Shown: positions 9,575 to 21,871, counted from the stretch's first letter. The stretch is 64,000 nucleotides of DNA from an uncultured SAR86 cluster bacterium (GCA_902574355.1 CACGNN010000007.1:1721-65720), one strand, 5' to 3'. Notes: generated from the sequence alone by a model not told the origin. Numbers and translations are program-made.

Positions 9575-10483
9575 TTAAACTTTCTTAGGAGCCCCTTTTT
9601 CTTCTACTTCTTGGTCATGGAACTTTTTAGATTCAACTAGCTCAGGAATTAACTGATCTAGCTGATCAAGAGTCCATAAGTTATCTGTGGTAAAAGATTG
9701 AATAATTGCGGGCTGTTGCATAATTCCTAATATTCCTCCTTGTGAATGAATAATTTGTGACGTTACTTGGCTAGCTTCTTCGGTACATAGCCATGCTACT
9801 ACTGGAGCTATTTGACCTGGCCCTTGTGTCCAGTCATTTTCATCATACTTTCTTCCTGCAGCTTCAATAAGATCAATTGTCAGTCTTGTAGCAGCTCCTG
9901 GAGAAATAGTGTTTACAGTACATTTATATTTTGCAACTTCCAATGCAAGAGATCTTGTAAAGCCAGCTATGCCCTCTTTTGCAGCACCATAATTTACTTG
10001 TCCAAAATTTCCAAATAGACCTGAGACAGAAGACATATTGATAATCCTGCAGCCCAAAATATTATTGTCTCTCATATATCTCACTAAGGGTCTAGTGCAG
10101 TTATAGTGTCCTTTTAGATGGACTTCCATTATTACATCCCAATCAGACTCCTCCATGTTGTACAGTGTCTTGTCTCTTAAAATACCTGCATTATTTACAA
10201 GTATATCGGCACGACCAAATGATTCTATGGCGGTATTAAATATGTTTTGACCACCTTCAACTGTTCCTACGGAATCATAGTTGGCTGCTGCATCAGAGCC
10301 AAGGGCTTTTATTTCTTCGACAACCTCATCAGCTACTTTGCCTTCACCGCTTCCATCTCTACCTCCACCTAAATCATTTACTACAATTTTTGCTCCTTCT
10401 GAAGCTAAATAAAGGCATATTTCTCTTCCTATACCTCTTCCAGCCCCAGTGATTATTGCAACCTTATCTTTTAATCTAGCCAT
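9575..10483 (-). CDS. short-chain dehydrogenase/reductase (SDR) with C-terminal extension
   Basis: TGAGRGIG cofactor motif and YGAAKEG (YxxxK). An AGGGGG Shine-Dalgarno lies between the two in-frame ATGs, favouring 10483 (MARLKDK) over the tracked 10498. Confidence 0.85.
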   Translation of the reverse strand: MARLKDKVAIITGAGRGIGREICLYLASEGAKIVVNDLGGGRDGSGEGKVADEVVEEIKALGSDAAANYDSVGTVEGGQNIFNTAIESFGRADILVNNAGILRDKTLYNMEESDWDVIMEVHLKGHYNCTRPLVRYMRDNNILGCRIINMSSVSGLFGNFGQVNYGAAKEGIAGFTRSLALEVAKYKCTVNTISPGAATRLTIDLIEAAGRKYDENDWTQGPGQIAPVVAWLCTEEASQVTSQIIHSQGGILGIMQQPAIIQSFTTDNLWTLDQLDQLIPELVESKKFHDQEVEEKGAPKKV

Positions 10484-10586
10484 ATTTATCCCCCTCATTT
10501 ATTCTACTTCAAAAAAAAATTTAAGGTATTTATTTAGTCTTATTTAATGTATAAATGGACTGAGTTATCAGGGAGAATAACTAATT

Positions 10587-12026
10587 ATGGAGGAGAATAA
10601 TCTAAAAGCTCAATCCGCTTCTGCAAAGACGATGTGGACGTATGGCTTTGGTTCAATAGGCGTTGGAATCAAGAATAACTTGCTAGGGACCTGGTTACTT
10701 TTTTATTATCAAGATGTTTTGGGTTTGGATGCAGTGCTTGTTACTGCAGCAATAGGTATTGCATTGGTAATAGATGCACTCTCAGATCCTTTTGTGGGAG
10801 TTTGGTCCGATCGTCTTAAAACTAAATGGGGAAGAAGACATCCATTTATGTATGGAGCCATAATTCCTTTTGCCCTTTGTTATTATTTGATTTTACAAGA
10901 CCCAGGTGATATTTCGGATTCAGCACTTTTTACTAGACTTTTAGTTTTGATGATCCTTATGAGACTTGCAATGACTTTTTACGAAGTTCCTAGAGGCGCT
11001 TTAGGTCCGGAATTAACTAAAGATTATGACCAGAGAAATATAATAGCTGGTATAGGTATGGCCCTTGGATGGATTGGTGGTGCGGGTATTTCCTTTATCC
11101 ACATGGAATACTTTTTAGTTGATAGTTTCTCTAATGGTGCCGGATACCAATTGTTAGCCTTTTGGGGAGGTCTTGGTATTTTCGTTAGTACTGTAATTAC
11201 GACTGTTGGGACTCATAGTCGCATACCATACTTACATGTCCCACCTGAAAGATCTTTTAAGATTAAAACCTTTTTTCGGGAGGCAAAAGAAACTCTCTCT
11301 AATAGATCATGGTTAGTTTTATTTGCTTCAGGTTGTATTTATTCTCTTGTGGTAGGAACTGATACAGGAGCAGGAACTTACTACAATACTTATTTCTGGG
11401 AGTGGAAACCAAATCAAATATCTACATTTGCTGCTTGGAATGCAGCAAGTGTTGTATTTATAGCTTTGTTTGCACCAAGGATTGCAGTAGGTCGAAGTAA
11501 AAAAAAGATAGCTGTTGGAATCTTTCTAACCTCGATAGTGGTAGGGCCCTTACCTATGGTGCTGAGATTGCTTGAACCTATCATAGGCATACAACTTTTT
11601 CCTGCAAATGGTTCAGATTTAATATGGTGGATCCTTCTGATTCATAGTTGTGCATTAGTATCTATTGGTTCCTTGGGGTTTATCTTTATCACATCTATGG
11701 CAATGGAAATCGTAGAAGACGTAGAAAGAACAACAGGAAGAAGAGAAGAGGGGTTATTAGGTACAGTTAGTTCAATGATACAAAAACTTATTGGTGCCGG
11801 AGGCGTTCTAATTGCTGGGTTGATACTTGCTTGGGCCGGTTTTGATGATCCCGGTATTACAGAAGAAATGAAAAGTGGGGCACTTATAGACAGATTTGCA
11901 ACAATTCATATAGCAATAGGCTTTTTCTTACCTATTATTTCGACTCTTTTGATTCTTAAATATGACATTGATCGGAAAGGTCATCTAGATAATGTAAATG
12001 ATCTTGGTTATGTAGAGAAGAACTAA
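10587..12026 (+). CDS. GPH-family (MelB/MFSD2-like) symporter, paralog A
   Basis: 479-aa polytopic protein with DALSDPFVGVWSDRLKTKWGRRHPFMY. It shares long motifs with the 15057 gene (GFGSIxxGIKNN, FYEVPxxxLGPELT, TGRREEG). Confidence 0.85.
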   Translation: MEENNLKAQSASAKTMWTYGFGSIGVGIKNNLLGTWLLFYYQDVLGLDAVLVTAAIGIALVIDALSDPFVGVWSDRLKTKWGRRHPFMYGAIIPFALCYYLILQDPGDISDSALFTRLLVLMILMRLAMTFYEVPRGALGPELTKDYDQRNIIAGIGMALGWIGGAGISFIHMEYFLVDSFSNGAGYQLLAFWGGLGIFVSTVITTVGTHSRIPYLHVPPERSFKIKTFFREAKETLSNRSWLVLFASGCIYSLVVGTDTGAGTYYNTYFWEWKPNQISTFAAWNAASVVFIALFAPRIAVGRSKKKIAVGIFLTSIVVGPLPMVLRLLEPIIGIQLFPANGSDLIWWILLIHSCALVSIGSLGFIFITSMAMEIVEDVERTTGRREEGLLGTVSSMIQKLIGAGGVLIAGLILAWAGFDDPGITEEMKSGALIDRFATIHIAIGFFLPIISTLLILKYDIDRKGHLDNVNDLGYVEKN

Positions 12027-12814
12027 TGTTCTTCTTCCCAATTTCCGACGACAACGAAAGTGGTTCTAGACCTATAGTTTGTTATTTTATTATCGGTATA
12101 TGTTGCTTTATTTTCTTATGGCAAAGCACTCTTCCTGTAAATTTAAATCAGGAGGCCATATATAATTTTGGAGTCGTTCCTGCAGCTGTGCTGGGTAGTC
12201 AAGAAAGTTTTATAAGTCCGTATTTAACAATTTTCACTTCAATGTTTATGCATGGAGGATGGATGCATTTGATAGGTAATATGGTCTTTCTTTGGATATT
12301 TGGTGACAACATTGAAGATAGTATGGGACATAAGAAGTTTCTTATTTTTTATTTTGTTTGTGGAATAGCTGCTGCTTTACTTCAAGCATTAATTAATCCT
12401 GAGTCCAGTATCCCAATGATAGGGGCAAGTGGAGCAATTGCTGGTATTTTAGGTGCTTATTTAGTTCTTCATCCAAAAGCCAATGTGAATGTTTTATTTT
12501 GGCTTTTTATTTTTATAACAGTAATAAAGGTCCCTGCTTTTATCGTTCTAGTTATCTGGATATTCAGTCAATTCTTTAGTGCATCAATTGGCTCAGAAGG
12601 TGGGGTTGCGTATTTCGCACATATTGGTGGTTTTATTGCAGGCTGCCTATTAATTTATTTCTTTAAACACTCAAATATAAGATTATTTCAGTCGGGAAAT
12701 TCTAAATCGTTCGAGTCCAGTAATTTCTCAATGAATAGACTCTTTAGTCAACAAAAAGAAAGAGATTTTATGCAAGAATTTATCGACACGGCAAACAAAA
12801 AGGATAAAAATTAA
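12026..12814 (+). CDS. rhomboid-family intramembrane serine protease
   Basis: 262 aa. Catalytic GASGAIAGILGAY (GxSG) and HIGGFIAG histidine, plus a WMHLxxNM-like motif (GWMHLIGNM). The start overlaps the upstream stop (TAATG). Confidence 0.85.
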   Translation: MFFFPISDDNESGSRPIVCYFIIGICCFIFLWQSTLPVNLNQEAIYNFGVVPAAVLGSQESFISPYLTIFTSMFMHGGWMHLIGNMVFLWIFGDNIEDSMGHKKFLIFYFVCGIAAALLQALINPESSIPMIGASGAIAGILGAYLVLHPKANVNVLFWLFIFITVIKVPAFIVLVIWIFSQFFSASIGSEGGVAYFAHIGGFIAGCLLIYFFKHSNIRLFQSGNSKSFESSNFSMNRLFSQQKERDFMQEFIDTANKKDKN

Positions 12815-12817
12815 TCT

Positions 12818-15040
12818 ATGCGCTACATTTATTTTCTGTTTGGAACAGTTTTTATTGTTTTTGGTATCTATACCGCTGGCATATATCTAGATTTGTATGG
12901 TGAATTAGAAGAGCCCGGTTATTCTATAAACTCCGAACTACCAAAATCTCTTGTAGATCAAAAACTCATTGCTCAAGAATCATTTGGCAGAGAAAAGCAA
13001 ATTCTATTTGGAGATACTCATGTTCATACAACTTATTCAACAGATGCTTTTCTTTGGAGCTTGCCAATACTCAATGGAGAAGGCCCCCATCCAATAGCTG
13101 ATGCATGTGACTTTGCAAGGTTTTGTGCAAATTTGGACTTTTGGGTTTCTACAGATCATGCAGAGGCATTAACTCCAAGAAAGTGGAAGTCTATAAAGGA
13201 AGCTGTTAGAAACTGTAATAGTCCTACAGATGCTGATGATCCAGATTTAGTAACTTTTCTTGGATACGAGTGGACCCAAGTTGGAAATACAGCAGAAACA
13301 CACTATGGTCATAAAAATGTAATGTTTCTAGACATTGAAGAGGGAAAAGTTCCAGAGCGTGCAATTGGAGCAGGTGGATTAGCTACTAATGGAATGAGAG
13401 CTGGTATACCTGGACAATCAAGACAATTGAGACCTGCTGCATTACTTGATTTTGAGAATAGACATAGATATTTTAATTTTATAGCTTTTGCTGACGAACT
13501 GGCTGAAGCGAAAATGTGTGAAGAGGGAATACCTTCAAGCAAATTAGGTGATGATTGTTATGAGTATGCTGATACTCCAAAAGACTTATTTGAAAAGCTC
13601 AGAGATTTAAACTTTCCTACAATTGTTATACCACATGGCAATACTTGGGGTTTTTATACTCCACCTAACTCTAAGTTAGATAAACAGTTAGAAGCAGATT
13701 TCAACGATGATAATTTACAGATTTTATTTGAAGTTATGTCAGGTCATGGAAATTCTGAAGAATATAGGTCATGGAGATCTTTAACTGAGAATCAAAATGG
13801 TGATTTGATTTGTCCTAAACCTACTAAAGAATATTTACCAAGTTGTTGGAGAGCTGGAGAAATTATTGAAGAGCGATGTCTGGATAATGGATTCTCGGAT
13901 AGTGAGTGCTCTTCGAGAGCAGCAGAGGCAAGGGACAATTATGCTGTAATGGGTGTTGCAGGACACCTAACTGTTCCTGGTGTAACAATAGAAGATTGGT
14001 TGGATTCTGGACAATGTAGAGATTGTTATCTGCCTTCTTTTAATTATAGACCTGCTGGATCAGCACAGTACGGACTTGCAATCTCAAACTTTGATCAAGA
14101 AAATCCAATGAGATTTAATTTTGGATTTATTGCATCGAGTGACAATCATAGAGCCAGACCAGGTACAGGATATAAAGAAATTGACAGATTTGTTACGACT
14201 GAAGCTAATGGACCAAGTCATGATTATGTAGGTGAGGTACTTTATCCTGTCGAAGAAATCAAAGATAGATCAAATGATTTAAGAGATCAGCCTTTACTCG
14301 GTTTAAGGGCGGGATTTGGAGCTTTTGAGGCAGAACGAGAAGCCTCTTTTTTCACAACTGGCGGATTAGCAGCTGTTCATAGTTCTGGAAGAGATCGGGC
14401 ATCTATTTGGAAAAGTCTAACTAATAAGGAAACTTATGGAACTACAGGTGACAGGATTCTTCTTTGGTTTGATTTAGTGCGCCAAGATTCATTGATTCCC
14501 ATGGGTAGTACCGTCAATCAGACAGATAATCCTAGATTCAGAGTCAAAGCAGTTGGTGCATTTGAGCAAAAACCAGGCTGTCCAGATTATTCATCCACAG
14601 ATATTACTCAAGAAGAAATCGAAAGAATTTGTAAAAATGAATGTTATAACCCCTCTGATGAAAGAAAAAATATCTCAAGAATTGAAGTAGTTAAAATTAC
14701 ACCACAAATAACTCAAACCGAACCTATTGAAAAACTTATATTTGATGTATGGAAGACTTTTGAGTGTAATCCAAGTCAACAAGGGTGTGAGATTGAGTTT
14801 GAAGATGAGGATTTCAAAGAGACTTCAAGAGACACAATTTATTACGTAAGAGCTATCCAAGAGCCTTCGCCAGTAGTTAATGGCGGCAATCTAAGATGTA
14901 CTTTCGATGAGAAAGGAGAGTGTATTAAAGTAAATATCTGTTATGGTGATTCAAGAACAGATAAGGAAGATGATTGCCTGACCCTTTCAGAAGAAAGAGC
15001 TTGGTCTTCGCCTATCTATGTTAATTTTACGGGGATTTAG
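12818..15040 (+). CDS. DUF3604-family (PHP-like metal-dependent) protein with N-terminal membrane anchor
   Basis: 740 aa. One N-terminal TM segment, then the DUF3604 hallmark GDTHVHTTYSTDAF, STDHAE and GYEWTQ. It has 20 cysteines, mostly in close pairs, which suggests an extracytoplasmic disulfide-bonded domain. Confidence 0.7.
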   Translation: MRYIYFLFGTVFIVFGIYTAGIYLDLYGELEEPGYSINSELPKSLVDQKLIAQESFGREKQILFGDTHVHTTYSTDAFLWSLPILNGEGPHPIADACDFARFCANLDFWVSTDHAEALTPRKWKSIKEAVRNCNSPTDADDPDLVTFLGYEWTQVGNTAETHYGHKNVMFLDIEEGKVPERAIGAGGLATNGMRAGIPGQSRQLRPAALLDFENRHRYFNFIAFADELAEAKMCEEGIPSSKLGDDCYEYADTPKDLFEKLRDLNFPTIVIPHGNTWGFYTPPNSKLDKQLEADFNDDNLQILFEVMSGHGNSEEYRSWRSLTENQNGDLICPKPTKEYLPSCWRAGEIIEERCLDNGFSDSECSSRAAEARDNYAVMGVAGHLTVPGVTIEDWLDSGQCRDCYLPSFNYRPAGSAQYGLAISNFDQENPMRFNFGFIASSDNHRARPGTGYKEIDRFVTTEANGPSHDYVGEVLYPVEEIKDRSNDLRDQPLLGLRAGFGAFEAEREASFFTTGGLAAVHSSGRDRASIWKSLTNKETYGTTGDRILLWFDLVRQDSLIPMGSTVNQTDNPRFRVKAVGAFEQKPGCPDYSSTDITQEEIERICKNECYNPSDERKNISRIEVVKITPQITQTEPIEKLIFDVWKTFECNPSQQGCEIEFEDEDFKETSRDTIYYVRAIQEPSPVVNGGNLRCTFDEKGECIKVNICYGDSRTDKEDDCLTLSEERAWSSPIYVNFTGI

Positions 15041-15056
15041 ATTAAATTTATAAATC

Positions 15057-16538
15057 ATGGAAGAACAGGTACAAGATACTAAGTTAGATTTTAAGACCAA
15101 GTTCTTTTACGGATTTGGATCTATTTCTTTTGGTATTAAAAATAACGGTTTTAGTTTTTTTGTTCTATTTGTGTACAACTCTGTATTCGGTTTGCCAGGA
15201 TGGATGACAGGACTCGCGTTAAATATAATATTAGTAATTGATGCTATTACAGATCCTTTAGTTGGTTATTATTCTGATCGAACTAGATCTAAATGGGGTA
15301 GGCGACATCCATATATGTACGCTGCCGCTATACCAGTTGCTATAACTTATTATTTTCTTTGGACACCGCCAGAATACTACTCAGATTGGCAATTATTTTT
15401 TTACTTTTTGGTTTGTGCAATCATTATTAGAGTTTTTATAACCTTCTATGAGGTCCCTTCAATTTCTCTTGGACCTGAGCTAACTAGTAATTATGTAGAA
15501 AGGACTTCATTAATGTCTTTTAGATACTTTTTCGGTTGGTTTGGTGGCCTAACTACTTATAATTTAGTTTGGTTTTGGTTTGGACCAAATAATGTAACTG
15601 ATGCTTATTCTGATGGTAGATTCAATCCAGATGCTTGGGCAGATTATGGTCTTGTAGCGGCCATTCTGATTTTTATCGGAATTCTTGTTACAAGTCTTGG
15701 TACACATAAACATATTCCTAGGTTATTAGCCCCGCCCGAATCTAAAGCTGCACCTTTAGGAGAAGTTTTAAAAGAACTTAAAGAAACCTTACTCTCTAAT
15801 AAGTCATATATGTTTTTATTTTTTTCAGGCCTTCTTGCTGCTATGGCAGGCGGAATTGAAGCAGCATTTGCCATATATTTTGATTCTTTCTTTTGGGGTT
15901 TAAATACGAATGAGATGTTAACAAGAGGTTTATGCCTTTACCTTGCTCCAATAATAGCTATTTTCGTTGCTCCAATTCTTACTGATAGATTTGGTAAAAA
16001 GAAAACGGTTATGTCCATTTGGGCATTTCAGATAATATTTGCTGCTTTGCCTTTTGCCTTAAGGTACATAGACTTGGTTTACGGTACTTCACTTTTCCCT
16101 GCAAATGGAACTACTTATCTTCTTCCTGTGTTGTGCGTACATGTAGTTATAAACGTTTCCGCTGGAATCATAGTATTTGCAACACTCGCCTCGATGCTTA
16201 TGGACTTAGTTGAAGATATTCAGCTTAAGACAGGTAGAAGAGAGGAAGGAATACTTTTCTCGGCTAGAAGTTTTGCGGATAAAGCAGTTAGTGGTTTTGG
16301 ATTAACCTTTGCTGGAATAATTTTAACTCTAATTTCTTTCCCTGACCCTGAGGCAAGAAAAATGCTTGATAATGTAGTTCCAGATCAAATATTAGCTAAT
16401 CTAGCCTTGTGGTACGTACCCATTTGTATTATCGCCTTTGGAAGCGCCTTATCTCTAGTTTCAGGCTACACCCTTACCCGAGATGATCATGAAGAAAATG
16501 CTGCAAACCCAGATACTAAGGTTTGGAAAGATAGTTAA
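15057..16538 (+). CDS. GPH-family (MelB/MFSD2-like) symporter, paralog B
   Basis: 493 aa with DAITDPLVGYYSDRTRSKWGRRHPYMY. Clearly paralogous to the 10587..12026 gene. Confidence 0.85.
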   Translation: MEEQVQDTKLDFKTKFFYGFGSISFGIKNNGFSFFVLFVYNSVFGLPGWMTGLALNIILVIDAITDPLVGYYSDRTRSKWGRRHPYMYAAAIPVAITYYFLWTPPEYYSDWQLFFYFLVCAIIIRVFITFYEVPSISLGPELTSNYVERTSLMSFRYFFGWFGGLTTYNLVWFWFGPNNVTDAYSDGRFNPDAWADYGLVAAILIFIGILVTSLGTHKHIPRLLAPPESKAAPLGEVLKELKETLLSNKSYMFLFFSGLLAAMAGGIEAAFAIYFDSFFWGLNTNEMLTRGLCLYLAPIIAIFVAPILTDRFGKKKTVMSIWAFQIIFAALPFALRYIDLVYGTSLFPANGTTYLLPVLCVHVVINVSAGIIVFATLASMLMDLVEDIQLKTGRREEGILFSARSFADKAVSGFGLTFAGIILTLISFPDPEARKMLDNVVPDQILANLALWYVPICIIAFGSALSLVSGYTLTRDDHEENAANPDTKVWKDS

Positions 16539-16996
16539 TGCTTTACGCTCACTTATATAACTCACCAGTTGGGGATATAAGTTTACTCAAGGATGATTCA
16601 GACTTAATAGGCGTATCTTTTTCGAACCAAGTTTTTTGTGACACCAAAGCAAAATGTGATAAAAATACCTTCAAAATAATAATTGATCAGCTTAATGAGT
16701 ACTTTTTTGAAGGTAGAAAAAATTTTACTATTCAATACAGATTGCCTTTTACTGGTTTTAGGTCAGAAGTCTTTAATGAAATGATCAAAATACCTTATGG
16801 AGAATGCGTCACATATTCTTATATTGCTGAGAAAGTCGGTAATCCGAAAGCTTACAGAGCTGTTGGTACTAGTTGTGCAAAGAATCCAATTCCATTAGTG
16901 GTGCCTTGTCACAGGGTTTTGTCAAAATCAGGTTTAGGGGGCTTCACTGGTGGATTAGACATTAAAAAATTTCTCTTAGAGCTTGAAAGCAATTAA
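16538..16996 (+). CDS. ogt: methylated-DNA--protein-cysteine methyltransferase
   Basis: 152 aa with the active-site motif VVPCHRVL and a preceding YRAVGTSCAKNPIP helix-turn-helix region. TAATG overlap with the upstream gene. Confidence 0.9.
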   Translation: MLYAHLYNSPVGDISLLKDDSDLIGVSFSNQVFCDTKAKCDKNTFKIIIDQLNEYFFEGRKNFTIQYRLPFTGFRSEVFNEMIKIPYGECVTYSYIAEKVGNPKAYRAVGTSCAKNPIPLVVPCHRVLSKSGLGGFTGGLDIKKFLLELESN

Positions 16997-17005
16997 AATT
17001 CAATA

Positions 17006-17326
17006 ATGAGTGCAATTACATCTATAGAAGTTAAATTAAAAAAAGCGCTAGACCCTAGTCATCTAGAGGTTATAGACGAAAGTTATCTTCATAACGTAGA
17101 ACCAGGGAGAGAATCCCATGTAAGGATAGTGGCCATCTCTAATCTTTTTGACGGACTAAATTTAGTTAAAAGACATCAGCTTATTTACTCTGAGATACAA
17201 GAAGAAATTGATGGACCAATACATGCCTTATCTATTCATACTTTCACCGAAAACGAGTGGATAGAAAAGAATGAGAAAGCAGAACCTTCTCCTAATTGTC
17301 TGGGCGGCAGTAAAAACGAAAACTAG
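17006..17326 (+). CDS. bolA: BolA-family protein
   Basis: 106 aa. HLEVIDESYLH ... SHVRIVAISNLFDGLNLVKRHQLIY ... IHALSIHTFT matches the BolA fold signature. Confidence 0.8.
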   Translation: MSAITSIEVKLKKALDPSHLEVIDESYLHNVEPGRESHVRIVAISNLFDGLNLVKRHQLIYSEIQEEIDGPIHALSIHTFTENEWIEKNEKAEPSPNCLGGSKNEN

Positions 17327-17335
17327 AAAATTAAA

Positions 17336-18259
17336 ATGGCAGATAATCATGTCGTTACCTTCTATTCCATCGAAAAAATAGGTGACCATAAAAAAGTTGG
17401 CAGGACTGTTGAGCGACACTGTATTAAAAACAGTATAGTTGGAACTTTTTTTTCGACACCGCAGGGTGTCAATACTACTTTGTCTGGAAAGAAAAAGGCC
17501 TTAATTGAGCTTGTTTCCTTATTGGAAAAGAAATTTAAATTAACTATAAAAGATGAAACTTGGTCTTCTTCTAATTCTTTGCCTTTTAAGAGATTAAAAA
17601 TAAAGTGCAGAAATAGATTGTTGCCACTAAAGGGTGATTTTGATCCAGTTACTTCAAGAGGTAAACATTTGAATTACCAGGATTGGAACAAATTAATTAC
17701 AGATCCCAACACAATTATTCTAGATGTCAGGAATAATTACGAAACGGAAATAGGTACCTTCAAGAACTCAATCATTCCTAAAATGGATAATTTAACTGAA
17801 TTCCCCCATTTCGTGGATAAAGAGTTATCTGAAATCAAAAAGAAAAAGATAGCTATGTTCTGTACGGGAGGCATTAGGTGCGAAATAGCCTCTTCTTTCA
17901 TGATGAACGAAGGTTTTGAAGATGTTTATCAACTTGATGGTGGTATTTTAAGATATCTCAAAGATGTTCAAGATGAAAACCTATGGGAAGGGGAATGTTT
18001 TGTTTTTGATGAAAGAGTTACTGTAGATAAGAACTTAAAACCAGGAAATTTTCTTCAATGTTTTGGGTGCAGAAGACCTCTATCAAAAACTGATCTTGAA
18101 TCAAAATATTATGAAAAAGGCGTATCTTGTCATAAGTGCTACAACGTCTCTTCTAAAAAAGATAAGGAAAGATTCTCCCAAAGACAGTTGCAGATTGAAT
18201 TAGCTGAAGAAAGAGGACACGTTCATATGGGTGCTAAAGCAAAACAAGATAAGGTATAA
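17336..18259 (+). CDS. trhO: rhodanese-domain tRNA uridine(34) hydroxylase (UPF0176/YceA family)
   Basis: 307 aa. Rhodanese active-site loop CTGGIRCE and a C-terminal Cys-rich tail (CFGCRRP ... CHKC), typical of TrhO/YceA. Confidence 0.85.
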   Translation: MADNHVVTFYSIEKIGDHKKVGRTVERHCIKNSIVGTFFSTPQGVNTTLSGKKKALIELVSLLEKKFKLTIKDETWSSSNSLPFKRLKIKCRNRLLPLKGDFDPVTSRGKHLNYQDWNKLITDPNTIILDVRNNYETEIGTFKNSIIPKMDNLTEFPHFVDKELSEIKKKKIAMFCTGGIRCEIASSFMMNEGFEDVYQLDGGILRYLKDVQDENLWEGECFVFDERVTVDKNLKPGNFLQCFGCRRPLSKTDLESKYYEKGVSCHKCYNVSSKKDKERFSQRQLQIELAEERGHVHMGAKAKQDKV

Positions 18260-18261
18260 AG

Positions 18262-20739
18262 ATGTCTAAGGTCTTTTCTAAATTCGTTACATCTTACCCA
18301 AAGATGATTTTTATTTCTTTTCTTGTCGCTTTATCTTTCTCTATATTAAATCTTAATAACTTTAAGCTAGACGCCTCATCTGATTCTCTAGTATTAGAGA
18401 GTGATGATGATCTCAAATATTATAGAGAGGTAAATTCTGATTATGCTTCGTCTGACTTTTTAATAGTAATCTTTAAACCAAAGGAAGACCTATTTTCTGG
18501 TGAGACTATTTCTCAAGTTAGAGAAATGGTAAACGTTTTTGAACAAATTGAAGGAGTTGATTCTGTTCTAAGTTATTTAGATGCACCGTTACTTTTTAGT
18601 CCTAAAATGAGTATGAGCGAACTAGCTGATAATCTTCGGACTATTGAAGACGAAGGCACTGATAAAGATTTAGCAAGGCTAGAATTTAAAAATAGCCCCT
18701 TATACACAGAACTGCTCACTGACAAAGATGCAACTTATACCGCAATGCAATTATTGCTAAAAAGCAATGATTCTTATGAAGCGGCTATTGATCAACGTTA
18801 TCATATTCTTGACCTAATAAATTCTGAACAATATTTCCCTAGTGTTCATGATTTACAACTAAAAAATATAAATGAGGAAATAAAAACACTCAATACACAA
18901 GCATCTATAGATAGAGACGCGCTAATTGAATCGACAAGAAATGTTATAAAAAGTTTTAAAGATAAAGGCGATATATACCTTGGCGGCACCGCAATGATTG
19001 CTTCTGACATGATTAGTTTCATAAAAAGCGACCTTCAATATTTCGCTCTTGGTGTGCTGATTATGTTTGTAATAACTTTAAGTATTATTTTTAAAAAATT
19101 ACGTTGGGTTGCAATGCCCTTGGTTTCAAGTGCCTTAATTGCTGTTTTCGTTATTGGGTTTCTGGGCTGGATGGACTGGAGGGTTACAGTGGTTTCTTCA
19201 AATTTCATCTCCCTTCTACTAATAATATCAATCTCATTAACAATACATTTAATTGTTCGATATCAAGAGCTATACGAGATTAATCCTTCACTCGAAAAAA
19301 AGGATTTAGTGGCTTTAACAGTAGAACAAATGTTGAAACCTTGTTTTTATACTGCTCTAACTACAATCATTGCTTTTGCTTCTTTGGGGGTGAGTGAAAT
19401 TAAACCTGTAATGGATTTTGGTAAGATGATGGTTGCAGGAATATTCTTTGCTTTTATTTTTTCCTTTTTTCTTTTTCCGATATTCAGTCTACTTTTTACC
19501 TCTAGTCTTGACCAAGAATCGAAAGATTTCAGTAAAGGGGTAACCGTAGGTTTTTCTAAGCTAACTGAAAAATTAGGGAATTACGTAAGTCTTATCGGAA
19601 TTATTTTATTTTGCATATCGATATACGGTATCAACCAACTTACAGTTGAGAATAGATTTATAGACTATTTCAAGCCATCTACAGAAATCTATAAAGGTAT
19701 GGATTTACTCGATAACAAGCTTGGTGGCACAGCACCTTTAGATGTTGTTATTAATGCACCCAAAAATTGGATAACTGATATAGAAGAAGAATCTTTCGAT
19801 GATGACTTTGGCTTTGAAGATGAAGAATCAAATAATAATGGCTACTGGTGGAATACTATCACTCTAGAAAAGCTTGAGCAGATTCACGACTACTTAGATT
19901 CTTTACCAGAAATAGGAAAAGTTCTTTCTGTTGCTAGTGGTATAAAAGTAGCTACCGAACTAAAAGATGGTGAACCTTTGTCCGAGCTAGATTTAGCTCT
20001 GGTTAAAAACATGCTTCCAGAGGATATTAAAGAGAATTTATTGAGTTCTTATATAAGCAATGATGAAAATCAAGTACGGATATCAGCCAGAGTGATTGAG
20101 TCTGCCGAGGGTCTAAATCGAAATGAACTCTTGTATGAAATTTCTGAGACTCTAAAAACAGATTACAATTTGGAAGAAGAACAATTTAGACTGACTGGTT
20201 TAGCAGTGCTTTATAACAATATGTTACAAAGCTTATTTGATTCGCAGATTGGAACTATTGTTATTGTCTTTAGCATAATTTTTATAATGTTTTTAATTCT
20301 TTTTCGTTCTTTGTATTTATCCATTATTGGGATTATTCCTAATCTATTGGCAGCAGGTGTTGTGTTGGGAACTATGGGTATTTTTTCAATACCACTAGAT
20401 ATCATGACCATTACTGTTGCTGCTATCAGCGTTGGTATGGCTGTAGATAATACGATCCACTATATTCATAGATTTAAAAAAGAATTCAAAGTTTCTGGAA
20501 TCTATGTTCAAGCCATGAAAGATAGTCATAGAACCATTGGCAGGGCTATGTTTTATACTTCATTAACAATAATTCTTGGGTTTTTAGTATTTTCAACTTC
20601 TAACTTCAATCCAAGTGTCTACTTCGGGTTCTTTGTATCGTTAGCGATGGTTATGGCATTATTAGGGGCATTGACGTTATTACCCCAATTGATTCTTTAT
20701 TTTAAACCGTTGGGAAAAGAAAAATTAATAGGAGACTAG
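18262..20739 (+). CDS. RND-superfamily / MMPL-type exporter (COG1033-like)
   Basis: 825 aa with two blocks of about six TM helices, each preceded by a large soluble loop. This is the MMPL/HpnN-like RND architecture. Confidence 0.8.
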   Translation: MSKVFSKFVTSYPKMIFISFLVALSFSILNLNNFKLDASSDSLVLESDDDLKYYREVNSDYASSDFLIVIFKPKEDLFSGETISQVREMVNVFEQIEGVDSVLSYLDAPLLFSPKMSMSELADNLRTIEDEGTDKDLARLEFKNSPLYTELLTDKDATYTAMQLLLKSNDSYEAAIDQRYHILDLINSEQYFPSVHDLQLKNINEEIKTLNTQASIDRDALIESTRNVIKSFKDKGDIYLGGTAMIASDMISFIKSDLQYFALGVLIMFVITLSIIFKKLRWVAMPLVSSALIAVFVIGFLGWMDWRVTVVSSNFISLLLIISISLTIHLIVRYQELYEINPSLEKKDLVALTVEQMLKPCFYTALTTIIAFASLGVSEIKPVMDFGKMMVAGIFFAFIFSFFLFPIFSLLFTSSLDQESKDFSKGVTVGFSKLTEKLGNYVSLIGIILFCISIYGINQLTVENRFIDYFKPSTEIYKGMDLLDNKLGGTAPLDVVINAPKNWITDIEEESFDDDFGFEDEESNNNGYWWNTITLEKLEQIHDYLDSLPEIGKVLSVASGIKVATELKDGEPLSELDLALVKNMLPEDIKENLLSSYISNDENQVRISARVIESAEGLNRNELLYEISETLKTDYNLEEEQFRLTGLAVLYNNMLQSLFDSQIGTIVIVFSIIFIMFLILFRSLYLSIIGIIPNLLAAGVVLGTMGIFSIPLDIMTITVAAISVGMAVDNTIHYIHRFKKEFKVSGIYVQAMKDSHRTIGRAMFYTSLTIILGFLVFSTSNFNPSVYFGFFVSLAMVMALLGALTLLPQLILYFKPLGKEKLIGD

Positions 20740-20740
20740 T

Positions 20741-21871
20741 ATGGGACCACTAAAGGGATTCAAGATAATTGAAATGGCTGGAATAGGCCCAGGACCATTC
20801 TGTGGAATGATTTTGGCTGATCTTGGAGCAGAGATTATAAGAGTTGATAGAGCTTCTGCTGCAGGGACTGGCTCAAGAGAAGAGCCAGCGAACCGTGGAA
20901 AGAAATCAATCGCTGTAGACTTAAAGAGCGAAGATGGAGTTGAGGTAGTATTGAAATTAGTTGAAAGTGCAGACGCTATTTTCGAAGGTTTTAGACCCGG
21001 TGTAATGGAAAGATTAGGACTAGGACCTGATATATGCCAAAAAAGGAATGAGAAAATAGTTTTCGGAAGAATGACTGGATGGGGTCAAACTGGACCATTA
21101 GCGAATGCAGCTGGACATGATATTAACTATATTGCTTTGTCAGGAGCTTTAGCTGCCATAGGAAGAGACGATTCTCCTCCTGTTCCACCTTTAAATCTAA
21201 TCGGAGATTTTGGAGGTGGTGGCATGTTATTGGCTTTAGGTATTGTGGCTGCTCTCTTAGAGACTAAAAATTCCGGTAAAGGGCAGGTCATTGATGCAGC
21301 CATGACTGACGGATCTTCTTTACTAATGACAATGATGTATTCAATGCATCAATCAGGATTCTGGAACTTGGAACGTCAAACTAATCTTTTAGATGGAGCG
21401 GCACATTTTTATGATACTTACGAGTGTAAGGATGGTAAGTATATATCACTAGGATCGATTGAACCTCAATTTTATGCCTTGCTTTGTGAAAAGGCTGAGT
21501 TATCTCAAGATGATTTTGGAGATCAAATGAAAAGAGATACTTGGCAAAATAAAAAACAAATGATTAAGAATGTTTTTTTAACAAAGACAAGAGAAGAATG
21601 GTGTGATCTTATGGAGGGAAGTGATGTATGTTTTGCGCCCGTATTAGATATGAGTGAGGCACCTATGCATCCGCATAATATTGCTCGACAAACATTTATT
21701 GAAATTGAGGGTGTAACCCAACCCGCACCTGCTCCAAGATTCGATAGAACTCAAAATGAAATTACACTACCACCCGCCATTGCAGGTGAACATTCAAAAG
21801 AAATATTAGAATCACTAGGTATTGATAGTGATGAATATGACAGATTAATTTCTTCGGGTTCTATAGTTTGA
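20741..21871 (+). CDS. family III CoA-transferase (CaiB/BaiF; alpha-methylacyl-CoA racemase-like)
   Basis: 376 aa. The N-terminal LKGFKIIEMAGIGPGPFCGMILADLGAEIIRVDR and GHDINYIALSG are typical of the CaiB/BaiF/AMACR family. Confidence 0.85.
   Translation: MGPLKGFKIIEMAGIGPGPFCGMILADLGAEIIRVDRASAAGTGSREEPANRGKKSIAVDLKSEDGVEVVLKLVESADAIFEGFRPGVMERLGLGPDICQKRNEKIVFGRMTGWGQTGPLANAAGHDINYIALSGALAAIGRDDSPPVPPLNLIGDFGGGGMLLALGIVAALLETKNSGKGQVIDAAMTDGSSLLMTMMYSMHQSGFWNLERQTNLLDGAAHFYDTYECKDGKYISLGSIEPQFYALLCEKAELSQDDFGDQMKRDTWQNKKQMIKNVFLTKTREEWCDLMEGSDVCFAPVLDMSEAPMHPHNIARQTFIEIEGVTQPAPAPRFDRTQNEITLPPAIAGEHSKEILESLGIDSDEYDRLISSGSIV

What the first reader, a model, noticed from the sequence alone, without database searches (positions are those of the whole stretch)
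10587..16538. GPH symporter - rhomboid protease - cysteine-rich DUF3604 - GPH symporter module
Four tightly packed + strand genes (1-nt overlap, then 3-nt and 16-nt gaps). The two flanking 479/493-aa symporters are close paralogs. They share GFGSIxxGIKNN, SDRxxxKWGRRHP(F/Y)MY, FYEVPxxxLGPELT and TGRREEG, and both differ clearly from the third GPH gene at 756. Between them lie a rhomboid intramembrane serine protease and a 740-aa DUF3604 protein. DUF3604 is an uncharacterised PHP-like metal hydrolase family. This member has a single N-terminal membrane anchor and 20 cysteines, mostly in close pairs, which argues for a periplasmic disulfide-bonded ectodomain. One hypothesis: the ectoenzyme cleaves an external (phospho)ester or glycoconjugate, and the paired symporters import the products. 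GPH relatives include MFSD2-type lysolipid carriers. The rhomboid could process or release the anchored enzyme. A rhomboid embedded in a nutrient-uptake cluster is unusual.
Basis: partly seen in the sequence, partly recalled or inferred. Interest (0 to 1): 0.6.

Follow-up and report, generated by a model that had tools for sequence, protein, structure and literature searches.

The report
SAR86 periplasmic hydrolase beside bystander rhomboid
The four genes are real, but they look like a lineage-specific neighbourhood in SAR86 marine bacteria rather than a four-part uptake machine: the rhomboid protease is a fixed backbone gene, and the unknown cysteine-rich hydrolase has different conserved partners in other bacteria.

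Summary
Observation confirmed. MFS_2 symporter (10587-12026), rhomboid (12026-12814), 740-aa DUF3604-like protein (12818-15040) and a second MFS_2 symporter (15057-16538) lie on the + strand with a 1-nt overlap, then 3- and 16-nt gaps. The genome is a 1.4-Mb SAR86 (Magnimaribacterales) genome.

- The hydrolase is very probably periplasmic. It has a confident PHP fold, a fully conserved trinuclear-metal ligand set and 20 conserved cysteines.
- Tight spacing is the genome norm: the median same-strand gap is 4 nt.
- The order is kept only in two of the four SAR86 families. Between those two, 68% of all four-gene windows are collinear anyway.
- The rhomboid keeps its place next to bolA-MMPL in SAR86 families that lack the other three genes at this locus.
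- Of 79 loci of the hydrolase family kept apart from the syntenic SAR86 locus, none has a rhomboid within 8 kb and three have an MFS_2 gene.
- The recurrent partners are a SurA-like PPIase and a HupE/UreJ-2 permease. This genome encodes that pair on another contig.
- The genome has four paralogs of the hydrolase, in unrelated contexts.

Hydrolase-symporter coupling remains possible (about 0.2-0.3). Rhomboid processing of the hydrolase is unlikely (about 0.05-0.1). The scan reached the same reading earlier on other SAR86 DNA (e1-2348460).

The parts
10499..10586 (.). 88-nt divergent intergenic region between the SDR gene (-) and MFS2a (+). It is the only sizeable non-coding gap at the locus and has a purine-rich stretch (AGGGAG) about 11 nt before the ATG.
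   Evidence: Metatranscriptome contig depth is low here in all four runs. The promoter scan does not exceed chance.
10587..12026 (+). MFS2a: a 479-aa MFS_2 (GPH-related) cation symporter from a divergent branch that is not typical of glycoside carriers.
   Evidence: Pfam MFS_2 253 bits. TIGR00792 159 bits against a cut-off of 231. 35% identical to MFS2b. Orthologs lie beside the rhomboid only in SAR86 families f1 and f3.
12026..12814 (+). Rhomboid intramembrane serine protease, 262 aa, the only copy found in the genome. The catalytic motifs are intact: GASG (Ser135), AHIGG (His199) and H81xxxN85.
   Evidence: Pfam Rhomboid 126 bits, motifs, only blastp hit in the genome's ORF set. Below the GlpG and rhombosortase cut-offs. 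The ortholog keeps its position before bolA-MMPL in families that lack the flanking genes.
12818..15040 (+). DUF3604-like protein, 740 aa. It has an N-terminal hydrophobic anchor or signal (residues 4-22), a PHP barrel with helical and Cys-rich insertions (about 60-540) and a C-terminal beta-sandwich (about 545-740). Invariant residues are H68, H70, D76, H114, E151, H165, H273, H310, D442 and H444. All 20 Cys are conserved.
15057..16538 (+). MFS2b: a 493-aa MFS_2 cation symporter. The cation-site motif reads DAITDP, as in the aligned MFSD2A chain. The position aligned to 'KD' of MelB's GKD motif reads Phe-Gly.
   Evidence: Pfam MFS_2 294 bits. TIGR00792 153 bits against 231. Alignments to MelB and MFSD2A chains. 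Orthologs (43% identity or more) occur only in f1 and f3.
16538..21871 (+). Continuation of the same tightly packed + strand run: ogt (variable), bolA, a rhodanese-like gene, an MMPL/RND transporter and a family III CoA-transferase. The bolA-MMPL part is shared by all four SAR86 families; the rhodanese and CoA-transferase genes were not found at this place in f4.

Best explanation
The locus is a lineage-specific gene neighbourhood, not a dedicated four-gene module.

The centre gene encodes an extracytoplasmic, disulfide-rich metallohydrolase with a PHP fold, from a divergent branch of DUF3604. An N-terminal hydrophobic segment exports or tethers it. A complete HxH...D...H...E...H...H...DxH ligand set would bind a trinuclear metal centre. 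By analogy with other PHP enzymes it most probably hydrolyses a phosphate ester, or a similar ester, in the periplasm. The gene neighbourhoods hint at an amphipathic or lipid-derived substrate.

It is one of four paralogs in this 1.4-Mb SAR86 genome. Its conserved partners across bacterial phyla are a membrane-anchored SurA/PpiD-like PPIase (folding helper) and a two-domain HupE/UreJ-2 permease with a histidine directly after its signal peptide (metal capture or supply). In this genome that pair lies together on another contig, where it could serve all four paralogs.

The rhomboid is a housekeeping backbone gene with intact catalytic residues. It keeps its place beside bolA-MMPL whether or not the hydrolase and the symporters are present. 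It most probably works in general membrane-protein processing or quality control.

The two MFS_2 genes are old paralogs from a branch not typical of glycoside carriers. They are cation-coupled symporters of unknown substrate. They entered or stayed at this locus only in the f1/f3 branch.

Shown: gene content, fold, conserved residues, distribution and synteny. Inferred: periplasmic location, phosphoesterase chemistry, the roles of the PPIase and HupE/UreJ-2 partners, and the bystander status of the rhomboid.
For: Fold. The AF2 model has pLDDT 90 and pTM 0.91. The best structural matches are all PHP enzymes: 3e38 Z 16.9, 2anu Z 15.2, PsfC 12.5, EndoQ 12.0, 3o0f 11.9. Foldseek also ranks 3e38 first.

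Ligands and cysteines. They are invariant or at least 90% conserved in 50 sequences from many phyla.

Partners. The PPIase and HupE/UreJ-2 families each occur in 31 of 79 loci by clustering. The PPIase lies directly downstream in 22, HupE/UreJ-2 in 21 and both in 19 of the 64 loci with at least 2.5 kb of downstream sequence. The pair is present and adjacent at G000 C5:65737-67785. The HupE/UreJ-2 protein has a His right after its signal peptide, like the 'anglerase'-HupE/UreJ-2 proteins of PMC12537917. Within SAR86, the 740-aa family and the roughly 400-aa HupE/UreJ-2 form are present or absent together in 17 of 19 genera.

Rhomboid as backbone gene. Orthologs occur in f4 and in f2 genera g18 and g19 at the same position, with other or no genes in the slot. 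Only one rhomboid was found in G000's ORF set.

Paralogs in unrelated contexts. They lie among ECH/SDR genes, between purA and nusB/ribH, and beside PhyH and OTCase genes. In f2 genera the best homolog sits in the purA-ribH slot, far from the rhomboid and from the MFS2b-like gene in the closed genome G080. A 65%-identical homolog (L034) has neither a rhomboid nor an MFS_2 gene beside it.

Background. Background synteny is 68-82% and the median gap is 4 nt.
Against: The four genes are never separated in any f1 or f3 genome examined, even where GH3, ogt and extra SDR genes come and go around them.

MFS2a, MFS2b and this hydrolase copy share one distribution within SAR86, namely f1 and f3.

One locus outside SAR86 (Rhodobiaceae, L072) has hydrolase, acyl-CoA synthetase and an MFS2b-like gene (41% identity) on one strand with gaps under 100 nt.

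Metatranscriptome contigs from separate studies bridge the MFS2a|rhomboid and hydrolase|MFS2b junctions. Contigs cannot prove a single transcript.

No biochemical datum exists for any DUF3604 protein, so the chemistry is inferred from fold alone. One structural neighbour, PsfC, is recalled from memory as an oxidative rather than hydrolytic enzyme.
Confidence: 0.65

Rival explanations
1. A three-gene 'cleave and import' unit specific to one SAR86 branch. The tethered periplasmic hydrolase cleaves an external ester, for example a lysophospholipid, glycerophosphodiester or alkyl phosphate. The two cation-coupled MFS_2 symporters take up the two products and feed the beta-oxidation-centred metabolism of SAR86. 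The rhomboid merely lies in between.
For: The three genes share one distribution in the order and their adjacency is unbroken in all f1 and f3 genomes examined. The L072 locus has hydrolase, acyl-CoA synthetase and an MFS2b-like gene together. Both families show similar neighbour themes elsewhere: acyl-CoA dehydrogenase, TetR, acyl-CoA synthetase, thioesterase and alkylsulfatase genes. MFS2b reads DAITDP, the same letters as the aligned MFSD2A chain, and lacks the Asp that aligns with MelB's GKD motif. RNA-library contigs bridge the hydrolase|MFS2b junction. Beta-oxidation is central to SAR86 metabolism (PMC11582366).
Against: Families f1 and f3 probably form one sister pair (PMC11582366; the mapping is inferred), so the shared distribution is a single evolutionary event. 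Background collinearity of four-gene windows is 68%. Only 3 of 79 further loci have an MFS_2 gene within 8 kb. In 401 sampled genomes the 28 other holders of an MFS2b-like gene and the one other holder of the hydrolase do not overlap. The other three paralogs have no transporter neighbour.
Confidence: 0.22
2. One reading: all four genes act together, and the rhomboid cleaves or releases the membrane-anchored hydrolase.
For: The rhomboid stop lies 3 nt before the hydrolase start. The rhomboid has intact catalytic residues and the hydrolase has one N-terminal transmembrane segment. Adjacency is kept throughout f1 and f3.
Against: The rhomboid ortholog is retained at the same position in 14 of 15 f4 genomes, and the hydrolase family was not found in any of the 15. 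In f2 genera that have both genes, they lie hundreds of kb apart. No rhomboid lies next to the hydrolase in any of 79 further loci. The rhomboid scores below the rhombosortase cut-off, and the only strongly hydrophobic segment of the hydrolase is N-terminal, so a GlyGly-CTERM anchor is unlikely. The N-terminal segment and the following LxLYG motif are equally conserved in lineages without an adjacent rhomboid. From general knowledge, an N-in/C-out anchor is not the usual orientation for a rhomboid substrate, and a T-A-G sequence after the hydrophobic core could simply be a signal-peptidase site.
Confidence: 0.07
3. The PHP-fold protein is not a hydrolase. It could be an oxidative or otherwise non-hydrolytic metalloenzyme, or a non-catalytic metal-binding envelope protein, working with the HupE/UreJ-2 permease in metal handling.
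For: PsfC is the third-best structural match at Z 12.5. The most constant partner is a metal permease with a metal-capturing domain. No activity has been reported for DUF3604.
Against: The full nine-ligand PHP pattern typical of trinuclear hydrolases is invariant. The top two structural matches, and most of the rest, are phosphoesterases or nucleases.
Confidence: 0.06

Closest known systems
Pfam PF12228 (DUF3604), an uncharacterised PHP-like family
   Same: All 50 aligned family members score above the Pfam cut-off. The FGD(L/T)HVHT and ERAWSSPI(Y/W) end motifs are shared with the genome's canonical DUF3604 copy. That copy is a predicted lipoprotein and so is also extracytoplasmic.
   Different: Only partial, weak coverage of the model: 86.5 bits in three stretches, against 727 bits for the canonical copy. 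Identity to the canonical copy is about 25%, over the C-terminal half only. This branch has about 740 aa, 20 conserved Cys and an N-terminal anchor instead of a lipobox.
PHP-family metal-dependent phosphoesterases (PDB 3e38 BVU_3505, 2anu TM0559, 3o0f BAD_1165, RNase AM, histidinol-phosphate phosphatase, YcdX)
   Same: Same distorted barrel fold (Z 16.9 down to 6.7). Same ligand pattern: HxH, D, H, E, H, H, DxH.
   Different: The solved relatives are about 225-400 residues long in the search table and, from memory, cytoplasmic. This protein is exported, about twice as long, has large helical and Cys-rich insertions (including a twin Cx9-10C hairpin) and a C-terminal beta-sandwich. Sequence identity is 13-20%, and a profile search of PDB sequences finds no PHP chain.
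Hydrolase / SurA-like PPIase / 'anglerase'-HupE/UreJ-2 trio (earlier scan note e1-3649069; Ang-HupE/UreJ-2 proteins of PMC12537917)
   Same: The same hydrolase family. The PPIase and HupE/UreJ-2 genes are present in this genome, adjacent to each other, and the permease has a signal peptide followed by His.
   Different: Here the pair is on another contig, unlinked from all four hydrolase paralogs. The hydrolase copy under study is flanked instead by a rhomboid and MFS_2 genes. A sequence search of the PDB with this genome's HupE/UreJ-2 protein found no chain.
MelB / GPH glycoside:cation symporters and MFSD2A lysolipid:Na+ symporters
   Same: MFS_2 fold family. The D-x-x-x-D-P...R-x-x-x-G-(R/K)-x-(R/K)-P loop is conserved. 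MelB and MFSD2A chains are the best PDB hits (E 5e-11 and 3e-10).
   Different: Below the TIGR00792 cut-off. The Asp of MelB's GKD motif aligns with Gly. The best aligned stretch to MFSD2A covers only the N-terminal 150 or so residues, with a second weak stretch. Homologs in Alphaproteobacteria lie near acyl-CoA dehydrogenase, TetR, DegP-like protease and monooxygenase genes, not glycosidases.
Bacterial rhomboid proteases (GlpG, AarA, YqgP) and rhombosortase
   Same: Rhomboid domain with the Ser/His dyad and the HxxxN motif. The best PDB hit is H. influenzae GlpG.
   Different: Far below the GlpG (36 against 250 bits) and rhombosortase (38 against 84 bits) equivalog cut-offs. No GlyGly-CTERM client is evident at the locus.

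Membership tests
PHP superfamily metallohydrolase | Distorted (beta/alpha)7 PHP barrel fold | tested here: met
   AF2 model with pLDDT 90. VIA-align gives Z 16.9 (3e38), 15.2 (2anu), 11.9 (3o0f) and 9.8 (RNase AM), well above the unrelated rows. Foldseek ranks 3e38 first with probability 0.99.
PHP superfamily metallohydrolase | Nine conserved His/Asp/Glu ligands for a trinuclear metal site (HxH, D, H, E, H, H, DxH) | tested here: met
   H68, H70, D76, H114, E151, H165, H273, D442 and H444 (plus H310) are invariant in 50 sequences. Mapping them onto the ligands follows the known PHP motif order and is inferred. The model's coordinates could not be inspected.
PHP superfamily metallohydrolase | Metal-dependent (phospho)esterase activity | not testable with these tools
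   No biochemical data. The only two papers that mention DUF3604 report no activity.
Pfam DUF3604 (PF12228) | Score above the gathering cut-off | tested here: met
   86.5 bits against 20.4, but in three partial stretches. All 50 family members match.
GPH glycoside-pentoside-hexuronide:cation symporter (TIGR00792) | Score above the curated cut-off of 231 bits | tested here: not met
   MFS2a 158.6 bits and MFS2b 153.3 bits. The gene at 756 scores 336.1 bits and passes. Pfam MFS_2 is met for all three.
MelB-type galactoside carrier | The Lys-Asp pair of MelB's GKD motif in helix I (recalled from memory as sugar-binding) | tested here: not met
   In the HMMER alignment to MelB chains these positions read Phe-Gly in MFS2b.
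MFSD2A-type lysolipid:Na+ symporter | Cation-site motif and lipid-binding cavity residues | tested here: inconclusive
   DAITDP is identical to the aligned MFSD2A chain. The best stretch covers only the first 150 or so residues (E 3e-10), with a second weak stretch. Cavity residues were not assessed.
Rhomboid intramembrane serine protease | Rhomboid domain with GxSG Ser, His and HxxxN | tested here: met
   PF01694 126 bits. GASG at 133-136, AHIGG with His199, and H81xxxN85.
Rhombosortase / GlyGly-CTERM system | TIGR03902 cut-off met, and a client with a C-terminal GlyGly-CTERM anchor | tested here: not met
   37.9 bits against a cut-off of 84. The hydrolase's only strongly hydrophobic segment is N-terminal and its C-terminus ends in the conserved WSSPIYV motif.
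Functionally coupled gene cluster (operon-like module) | Adjacency conserved beyond background synteny and in independent lineages | tested here: not met
   The order is kept only in f1 and f3, where 68% of four-gene windows are collinear. A rhomboid is adjacent in 0 of 79 and an MFS_2 gene in 3 of 79 further loci. The rhomboid alone stays in place in f4 and f2.
Functionally coupled gene cluster (operon-like module) | Co-transcription | tested here: inconclusive
   RNA-library contigs from four studies cover all four genes. They bridge MFS2a|rhomboid (X1, X2) and hydrolase|MFS2b (X1, X9). Contigs cannot show a single transcript and DNA carry-over is not excluded. Promoter and terminator scans are at chance level.
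Hydrolase-PPIase-HupE/UreJ-2 envelope trio | All three genes present; adjacency | tested here: inconclusive
   All three are present in G000. The PPIase-HupE/UreJ-2 pair is at C5:65737-67785, unlinked from the four hydrolase paralogs. Adjacency is met in 19-31 of the other loci, depending on the method.

The most novel reading that the evidence does not exclude
In the f1/f3 branch of SAR86 (probably Magnimaribacteraceae plus RedeBAC7D11), MFS2a, the tethered PHP hydrolase and MFS2b form a true periplasmic 'cleave-and-import' unit. An exported trinuclear-metal esterase would split an abundant amphipathic ester of marine dissolved organic matter, such as a lysophospholipid or an alkyl or glycerol phosphate ester. 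Two MFSD2A-like cation symporters would import the two halves for beta-oxidation and phosphorus supply. The intervening rhomboid might trim the anchor.
Probability: 0.2. Interest if true: 0.65.

Novelty: new member of a known kind. Interest (0 to 1): 0.3.

Why it matters
SAR86 is among the most abundant bacterial groups in the surface ocean, and its genomes are extremely small. This genome spends about 8.8 kb (0.6%) on four paralogs of one uncharacterised exported metallohydrolase. That suggests the enzyme matters for how these cells use dissolved organic matter, whether lipid-derived carbon or organic phosphorus. No DUF3604 protein has a known substrate.

The practical value of this check is negative but useful. 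The rhomboid-and-symporter context should not be used to guess the enzyme's function, because gene order in this streamlined lineage is largely inherited backbone. The informative partners are the SurA-like chaperone and the His1 HupE/UreJ-2 permease. These point to an envelope enzyme that needs oxidative folding and a dedicated metal supply.

Tried and rejected
Neighbourhoods were obtained instead through the search for related loci, the genome search and the fetch from genomes.
- A profile search of PDB sequences with the hydrolase family found no PHP chain, only a weak CHCH-domain similarity.
- A PDB sequence search with this genome's HupE/UreJ-2 protein found nothing.
- The protein atlas returned only DUF3604 clusters.
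- The homolog search for MFS2b listed only close relatives (59% identity or more); the few named ones are SAR86 or Gammaproteobacteria, with generic names.
- Promoter and terminator consensus scans were at or below shuffled expectation.
- Rfam found no RNA family inside the locus.
- Literature searches for DUF3604 and PF12228 gave no functional study.
- The first tree attempt used wrong frames for high-GC loci and was discarded. It was redone. The final FastTree is midpoint-rooted and used only descriptively.
- Metatranscriptome contig depth was not used to rank genes. The low cover over the 3' half of the rhomboid gene (12410-12710) is not interpreted.
- Rhombosortase and GlpG identities for the rhomboid were considered and rejected on score.
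- The mapping of families f1-f4 to the named SAR86 families rests on genome sizes, genus numbers and the sister relations in PMC11582366. It was not tested.
- The tally of 28 other genomes with an MFS2b-like gene includes one unpublished genome, G446. No other claim rests on it.

Full report
**1. Observation**

The ORF list reproduces the four + strand genes at 10587-12026, 12026-12814, 12818-15040 and 15057-16538. The sequence at the junctions shows a shared TAATG, then a 3-nt gap, then a 16-nt gap.

Pfam assigns MFS_2, Rhomboid, DUF3604 and MFS_2. The DUF3604 match is weak and partial: 86.5 bits in three stretches.

Each is 26-27% identical to the GPH gene at 756. Both fall below the curated TIGR00792 cut-off, while the gene at 756 passes.

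The 740-aa protein has 20 cysteines (2.7% against a genome mean of 0.95%) and one hydrophobic segment at residues 4-22. The rhomboid has GASG (Ser135), AHIGG (His199) and HxxxN, so it should be active.

**2. Organism and packing**

The window is part of a 1.435-Mb assembly in 34 contigs with about 35% G+C. Named homologs come from 'SAR86 cluster bacterium'.

The genome is about 94% coding. The median same-strand intergenic distance is 4 nt, and 69% of such gaps are 16 nt or less. The tight spacing of the four genes is therefore the norm.

The same tight + strand run continues through ogt, bolA, a rhodanese-like gene, an MMPL transporter and a family III CoA-transferase to 21871.

**3. The hydrolase**

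An alignment of 50 family members from many phyla shows invariant H68, H70, D76, H114, E151, H165, H273, H310, D442 and H444. All 20 cysteines are invariant or at least 90% conserved.

AlphaFold2 on this alignment gives pLDDT 90 and pTM 0.91. The model has an N-terminal helix (2-23), a barrel with long helical insertions, and a C-terminal beta-sandwich.

A search of about 48,000 PDB representatives that does not depend on Foldseek places PHP enzymes at the top. These are 3e38 (Z 16.9, 245 residues aligned), 2anu (15.2), PsfC (12.5), EndoQ (12.0), 3o0f (11.9) and RNase AM (9.8). DNA polymerase PHP domains, histidinol-phosphate phosphatases and YcdX follow. Foldseek agrees.

The order of the invariant residues matches the classical nine-ligand trinuclear PHP site. 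This mapping is an inference from the known motif order.

No PHP chain is detectable by sequence in the PDB. All 50 members hit only PF12228. The only two papers that mention DUF3604 report no function. The family comprises 335 clusters at 50% identity with E of 1e-30 or better.

**4. Location**

Four lines of evidence point to an extracytoplasmic, oxidatively folded enzyme.

- One basic residue (Arg2) precedes the hydrophobic segment and an acidic stretch follows it.
- The 20 cysteines are conserved across phyla.
- SurA-like PPIase and DsbA genes recur as neighbours in other bacteria.
- The genome's canonical DUF3604 copy is a predicted lipoprotein.

Whether the N-terminal segment stays as an anchor or is removed by signal peptidase cannot be decided here. 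A T-A-G sequence follows the hydrophobic core.

**5. Paralogs**

The genome holds four paralogs of the 740-aa protein at 42-48% identity, plus one canonical DUF3604. The other three paralogs lie in unrelated contexts:

- between an SDR gene and enoyl-CoA hydratase genes;
- between purA and nusB/ribH;
- next to a PhyH dioxygenase gene and an OTCase gene, with a DsbD gene a few genes away.

None has a transporter or a rhomboid beside it.

**6. Synteny inside SAR86**

The order o6545-(GH3)-SDR(-)-MFS2a-rhomboid-hydrolase-MFS2b-(ogt)-bolA-rhodanese-MMPL-CoA-transferase holds in the genus, in other genera of family f1 and in family f3. Hydrolase identity falls to 51% across these. GH3, ogt and extra SDR copies vary.

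This is weak evidence for three reasons.

First, a published phylogeny of the order describes four families in two sister pairs (PMC11582366). Their shared order would then be one evolutionary event.

Second, I fetched 400 kb of an f3 genome and paired it with G000 by reciprocal best hits. Of adjacent gene pairs, 82% are still adjacent, and 68% of all four-gene windows are collinear.

Third, the rhomboid ortholog (45-54% identity) is present in f4 and in f2 genera g18 and g19 at the same backbone position, without the other three genes at the locus.

- In f4 the order is metallophosphoesterase-amidohydrolase-GT4-rhomboid-bolA-MMPL.
- In g18 and g19 an FAD amine oxidase, DUF1365 and cyclopropane-fatty-acid synthase genes, or ogt alone, fill the slot between the rhomboid and bolA.

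The slot downstream of the rhomboid is therefore variable and the rhomboid itself is fixed.

**7. More on distribution in the order**

The 740-aa family was found in 14 of 14 other f1 genomes, 21 of 25 f3 genomes, 0 of 15 f4 genomes, and in f2 only in genera g16, g18 and g19.

In those f2 genera the best homolog of the window's protein (48-51% identity) lies between purA and ribH/nusB. That is the position of G000's C2 paralog. In the closed genome G080 it is about 370 kb from the rhomboid and about 515 kb from the MFS2b-like gene. So even inside SAR86, the hydrolase and the rhomboid are unlinked wherever both occur outside f1 and f3.

MFS2b orthologs (43% identity or more) and the MFS2a genes beside the rhomboid occur only in f1 and f3. 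Other families carry more distant members of the subfamily elsewhere in the genome.

**8. Outside SAR86**

A scan of one genome per species returned at least 528 confirmed relatives. The best 80 loci were kept. They come from Leptospira, Binatia, Myxococcota, Spirochaetales, Bacteriovoracales, many marine Alphaproteobacteria (PS1, OCS116, Parvibaculales, Hyphomonadaceae), Woeseiaceae, Halioglobus, Nevskiales and others.

One locus (L033) shows the full SAR86 synteny. Among the other 79, a rhomboid lies within 8 kb in none and an MFS_2 homolog in three: L063, L072 and L099.

Clustering the neighbouring ORFs shows two strongly recurrent families, each in 31 of 79 loci:

- a 290-aa SurA_N/Rotamase_2 protein;
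- a roughly 400-aa HupE_UreJ_2 membrane protein.

Acyl-CoA dehydrogenase follows in 15 loci, SDR in 10, acyl-CoA synthetase in 7, alkylsulfatase in 6, DsbA in 6, TonB-dependent receptor in 5 and thioesterase in 5.

By tblastn, among the 64 loci with enough downstream sequence, the PPIase lies directly downstream in 22, HupE/UreJ-2 in 21 and both in 19. Several more loci have the pair just upstream.

A 65%-identical homolog from a gammaproteobacterial MAG (L034) is followed by Zn-dehydrogenase, TPP-enzyme, MBL-fold and thiolase genes. It has neither a rhomboid nor an MFS_2 gene.

**9. The real partners in this genome**

G000 encodes the PPIase and the HupE/UreJ-2 protein side by side at C5:65737-67785, unlinked from all four paralogs.

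The permease has a signal peptide followed directly by His (VLFS|HQ). This is the hallmark of the 'anglerase'-HupE/UreJ-2 metal-capturing permeases described in PMC12537917.

Across 19 SAR86 genera, the 740-aa family and the long (368-400 aa) HupE/UreJ-2 form are present or absent together in 17. Genera g3 and g7 are the exceptions with this query. This pattern includes a split inside family f2. It therefore involves at least one further gain or loss event than the MFS_2 pattern does.

**10. The symporters**

The best PDB sequence matches are MelB and MFSD2A.

- The cation-site loop is conserved. It reads DAITDP in MFS2b, the same letters as in the aligned MFSD2A chain, and DALSDP in MFS2a.
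- The Lys-Asp pair of MelB's GKD motif aligns with Phe-Gly.

In a sample of 401 complete Pseudomonadota genomes, 28 others carry an MFS2b-like gene (31-47% identity). Most belong to three families outside the window's class, and some carry tandem pairs. One of the 28, G446, is unpublished.

The neighbours of these homologs include acyl-CoA dehydrogenase, TetR, DegP-like protease, MBL-fold and flavin monooxygenase genes. None is a glycosidase.

Only one other genome of the same sample carries the hydrolase, and it is not among the 28.

The symporters are thus probably cation-coupled carriers of a non-sugar solute, perhaps an amphipathic one. They show no general dependence on the hydrolase.

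**11. Expression**

Seawater metatranscriptome assemblies from four studies contain contigs at 92-100% identity over all four genes.

- Contigs bridge MFS2a|rhomboid in X1 and X2.
- Contigs bridge hydrolase|MFS2b in X1 and X9.
- Two other junction crossings are borderline.

The tool warns that contigs show neither a single transcript nor transcription as such. I take this as compatible with expression and read-through, nothing more. Consensus promoter and terminator scans are uninformative.

**12. Verdict**

The periplasmic, disulfide-bonded PHP hydrolase reading is well supported. The four-gene module is not.

The rhomboid is a backbone gene. The hydrolase's conserved partners are elsewhere in the genome. 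The order of the four genes is no better conserved than that of average neighbours.

A hydrolase-symporter link limited to one SAR86 branch cannot be excluded. One Rhodobiaceae locus, with hydrolase, acyl-CoA synthetase and an MFS2b-like gene together, is a hint in its favour.

The scan had already reached essentially the same conclusion on other SAR86 genomes (e1-2348460) and had described the hydrolase-chaperone-permease trio (e1-3649069). I reached these points from my own searches before reading those notes. The anglerase paper is the exception: I took it from the second note and then checked it.

Noticed in passing
window 13811-13909 (hydrolase residues 332-364): A twin Cx10C/Cx9C helical hairpin (C332, C343, C354, C364; all invariant) gives the only PDB sequence hits of the family profile. 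These are weak matches (E 0.015 and above) to mitochondrial CHCH-domain protein CHCHD1/mS37. It may be a disulfide-stapled helical hairpin, analogous to intermembrane-space CHCH domains, inserted into a bacterial PHP barrel.
   Followed up: no
L139:9741-11789 (G000 contig C5:65737-67785): A SurA_N/Rotamase_2 PPIase and a HupE_UreJ_2 permease lie side by side with no gap, unlinked from all four hydrolase paralogs. The permease has a signal peptide followed directly by His, as in the published 'anglerase'-HupE/UreJ-2 proteins.
   Followed up: partly
L117:5674-9644 and L119:10070-13146 (SAR86 family f2, genera g18 and g19): The slot between the rhomboid and bolA holds an FAD amine oxidase, an unassigned 298-aa ORF, DUF1365 and cyclopropane-fatty-acid synthase genes in place of hydrolase-MFS2b. 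The position downstream of the rhomboid appears to be a hot spot for gene-content change in SAR86.
   Followed up: partly
L160-L164 (SAR86 f2 genera g16, g18, g19), about 8830-11310 in each: The hydrolase homolog in the purA-ribH/nusB slot is closer in sequence to the window's copy (48-51%) than to any other G000 protein, including the paralog that occupies that same slot in G000. This suggests unequal rates of change, or a duplication and relocation history worth resolving with a proper tree.
   Followed up: no
L095:7896-11596 and L101:7929-11635 (Halioglobus): The hydrolase gene overlaps the start of an SdsA1-type alkylsulfatase gene by 4 nt. Alkylsulfatase genes occur in 6 of 79 loci. This may hint at surfactant-like ester substrates.
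   Followed up: no
window 20741-21871: A family III CoA-transferase (AMACR-like) lies 5.7 kb downstream of the hydrolase. Homologs at 53-62% identity lie within 8 kb of the hydrolase in six further loci (L066, L070, L072, L074, L100, L101). This may be a lipid-catabolism link or chance.
   Followed up: partly
L033:10196-10867 and L120:6344-7013 (the latter is SAR86 genus g11): A gap of about 670 nt separates the hydrolase and MFS2b genes in these two loci, against 16 nt in the window. Its content was not examined.
   Followed up: no
proteins P0157-P0235: Many relatives of MFS2b, some named SAR86, are 566-583 aa long. The best local alignment covers only about half of the query, and the genome search reports their matches in two pieces within one 570-577-aa frame. 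This suggests an insertion of about 80 residues in the middle of the transporter.
   Followed up: no
L013:1369-3336 (G000 contig C1:241563-243530): The canonical DUF3604 copy (655 aa, 727 bits to PF12228) has a lipobox (LNAC) and shares the FGDLHVHT and ERAWSSPIW motifs with the 740-aa branch. In other SAR86 genomes, roughly 700-aa DUF3604 genes lie 1.4-3.6 kb from roughly 320-aa HupE_UreJ_2 genes (G025, G028, G029).
   Followed up: no
window 15045-15046: RNA-library contigs from three studies carry one extra T in the 16-nt spacer between the hydrolase and MFS2b genes. This is a population length polymorphism in an intergenic A/T-rich spacer.
   Followed up: no
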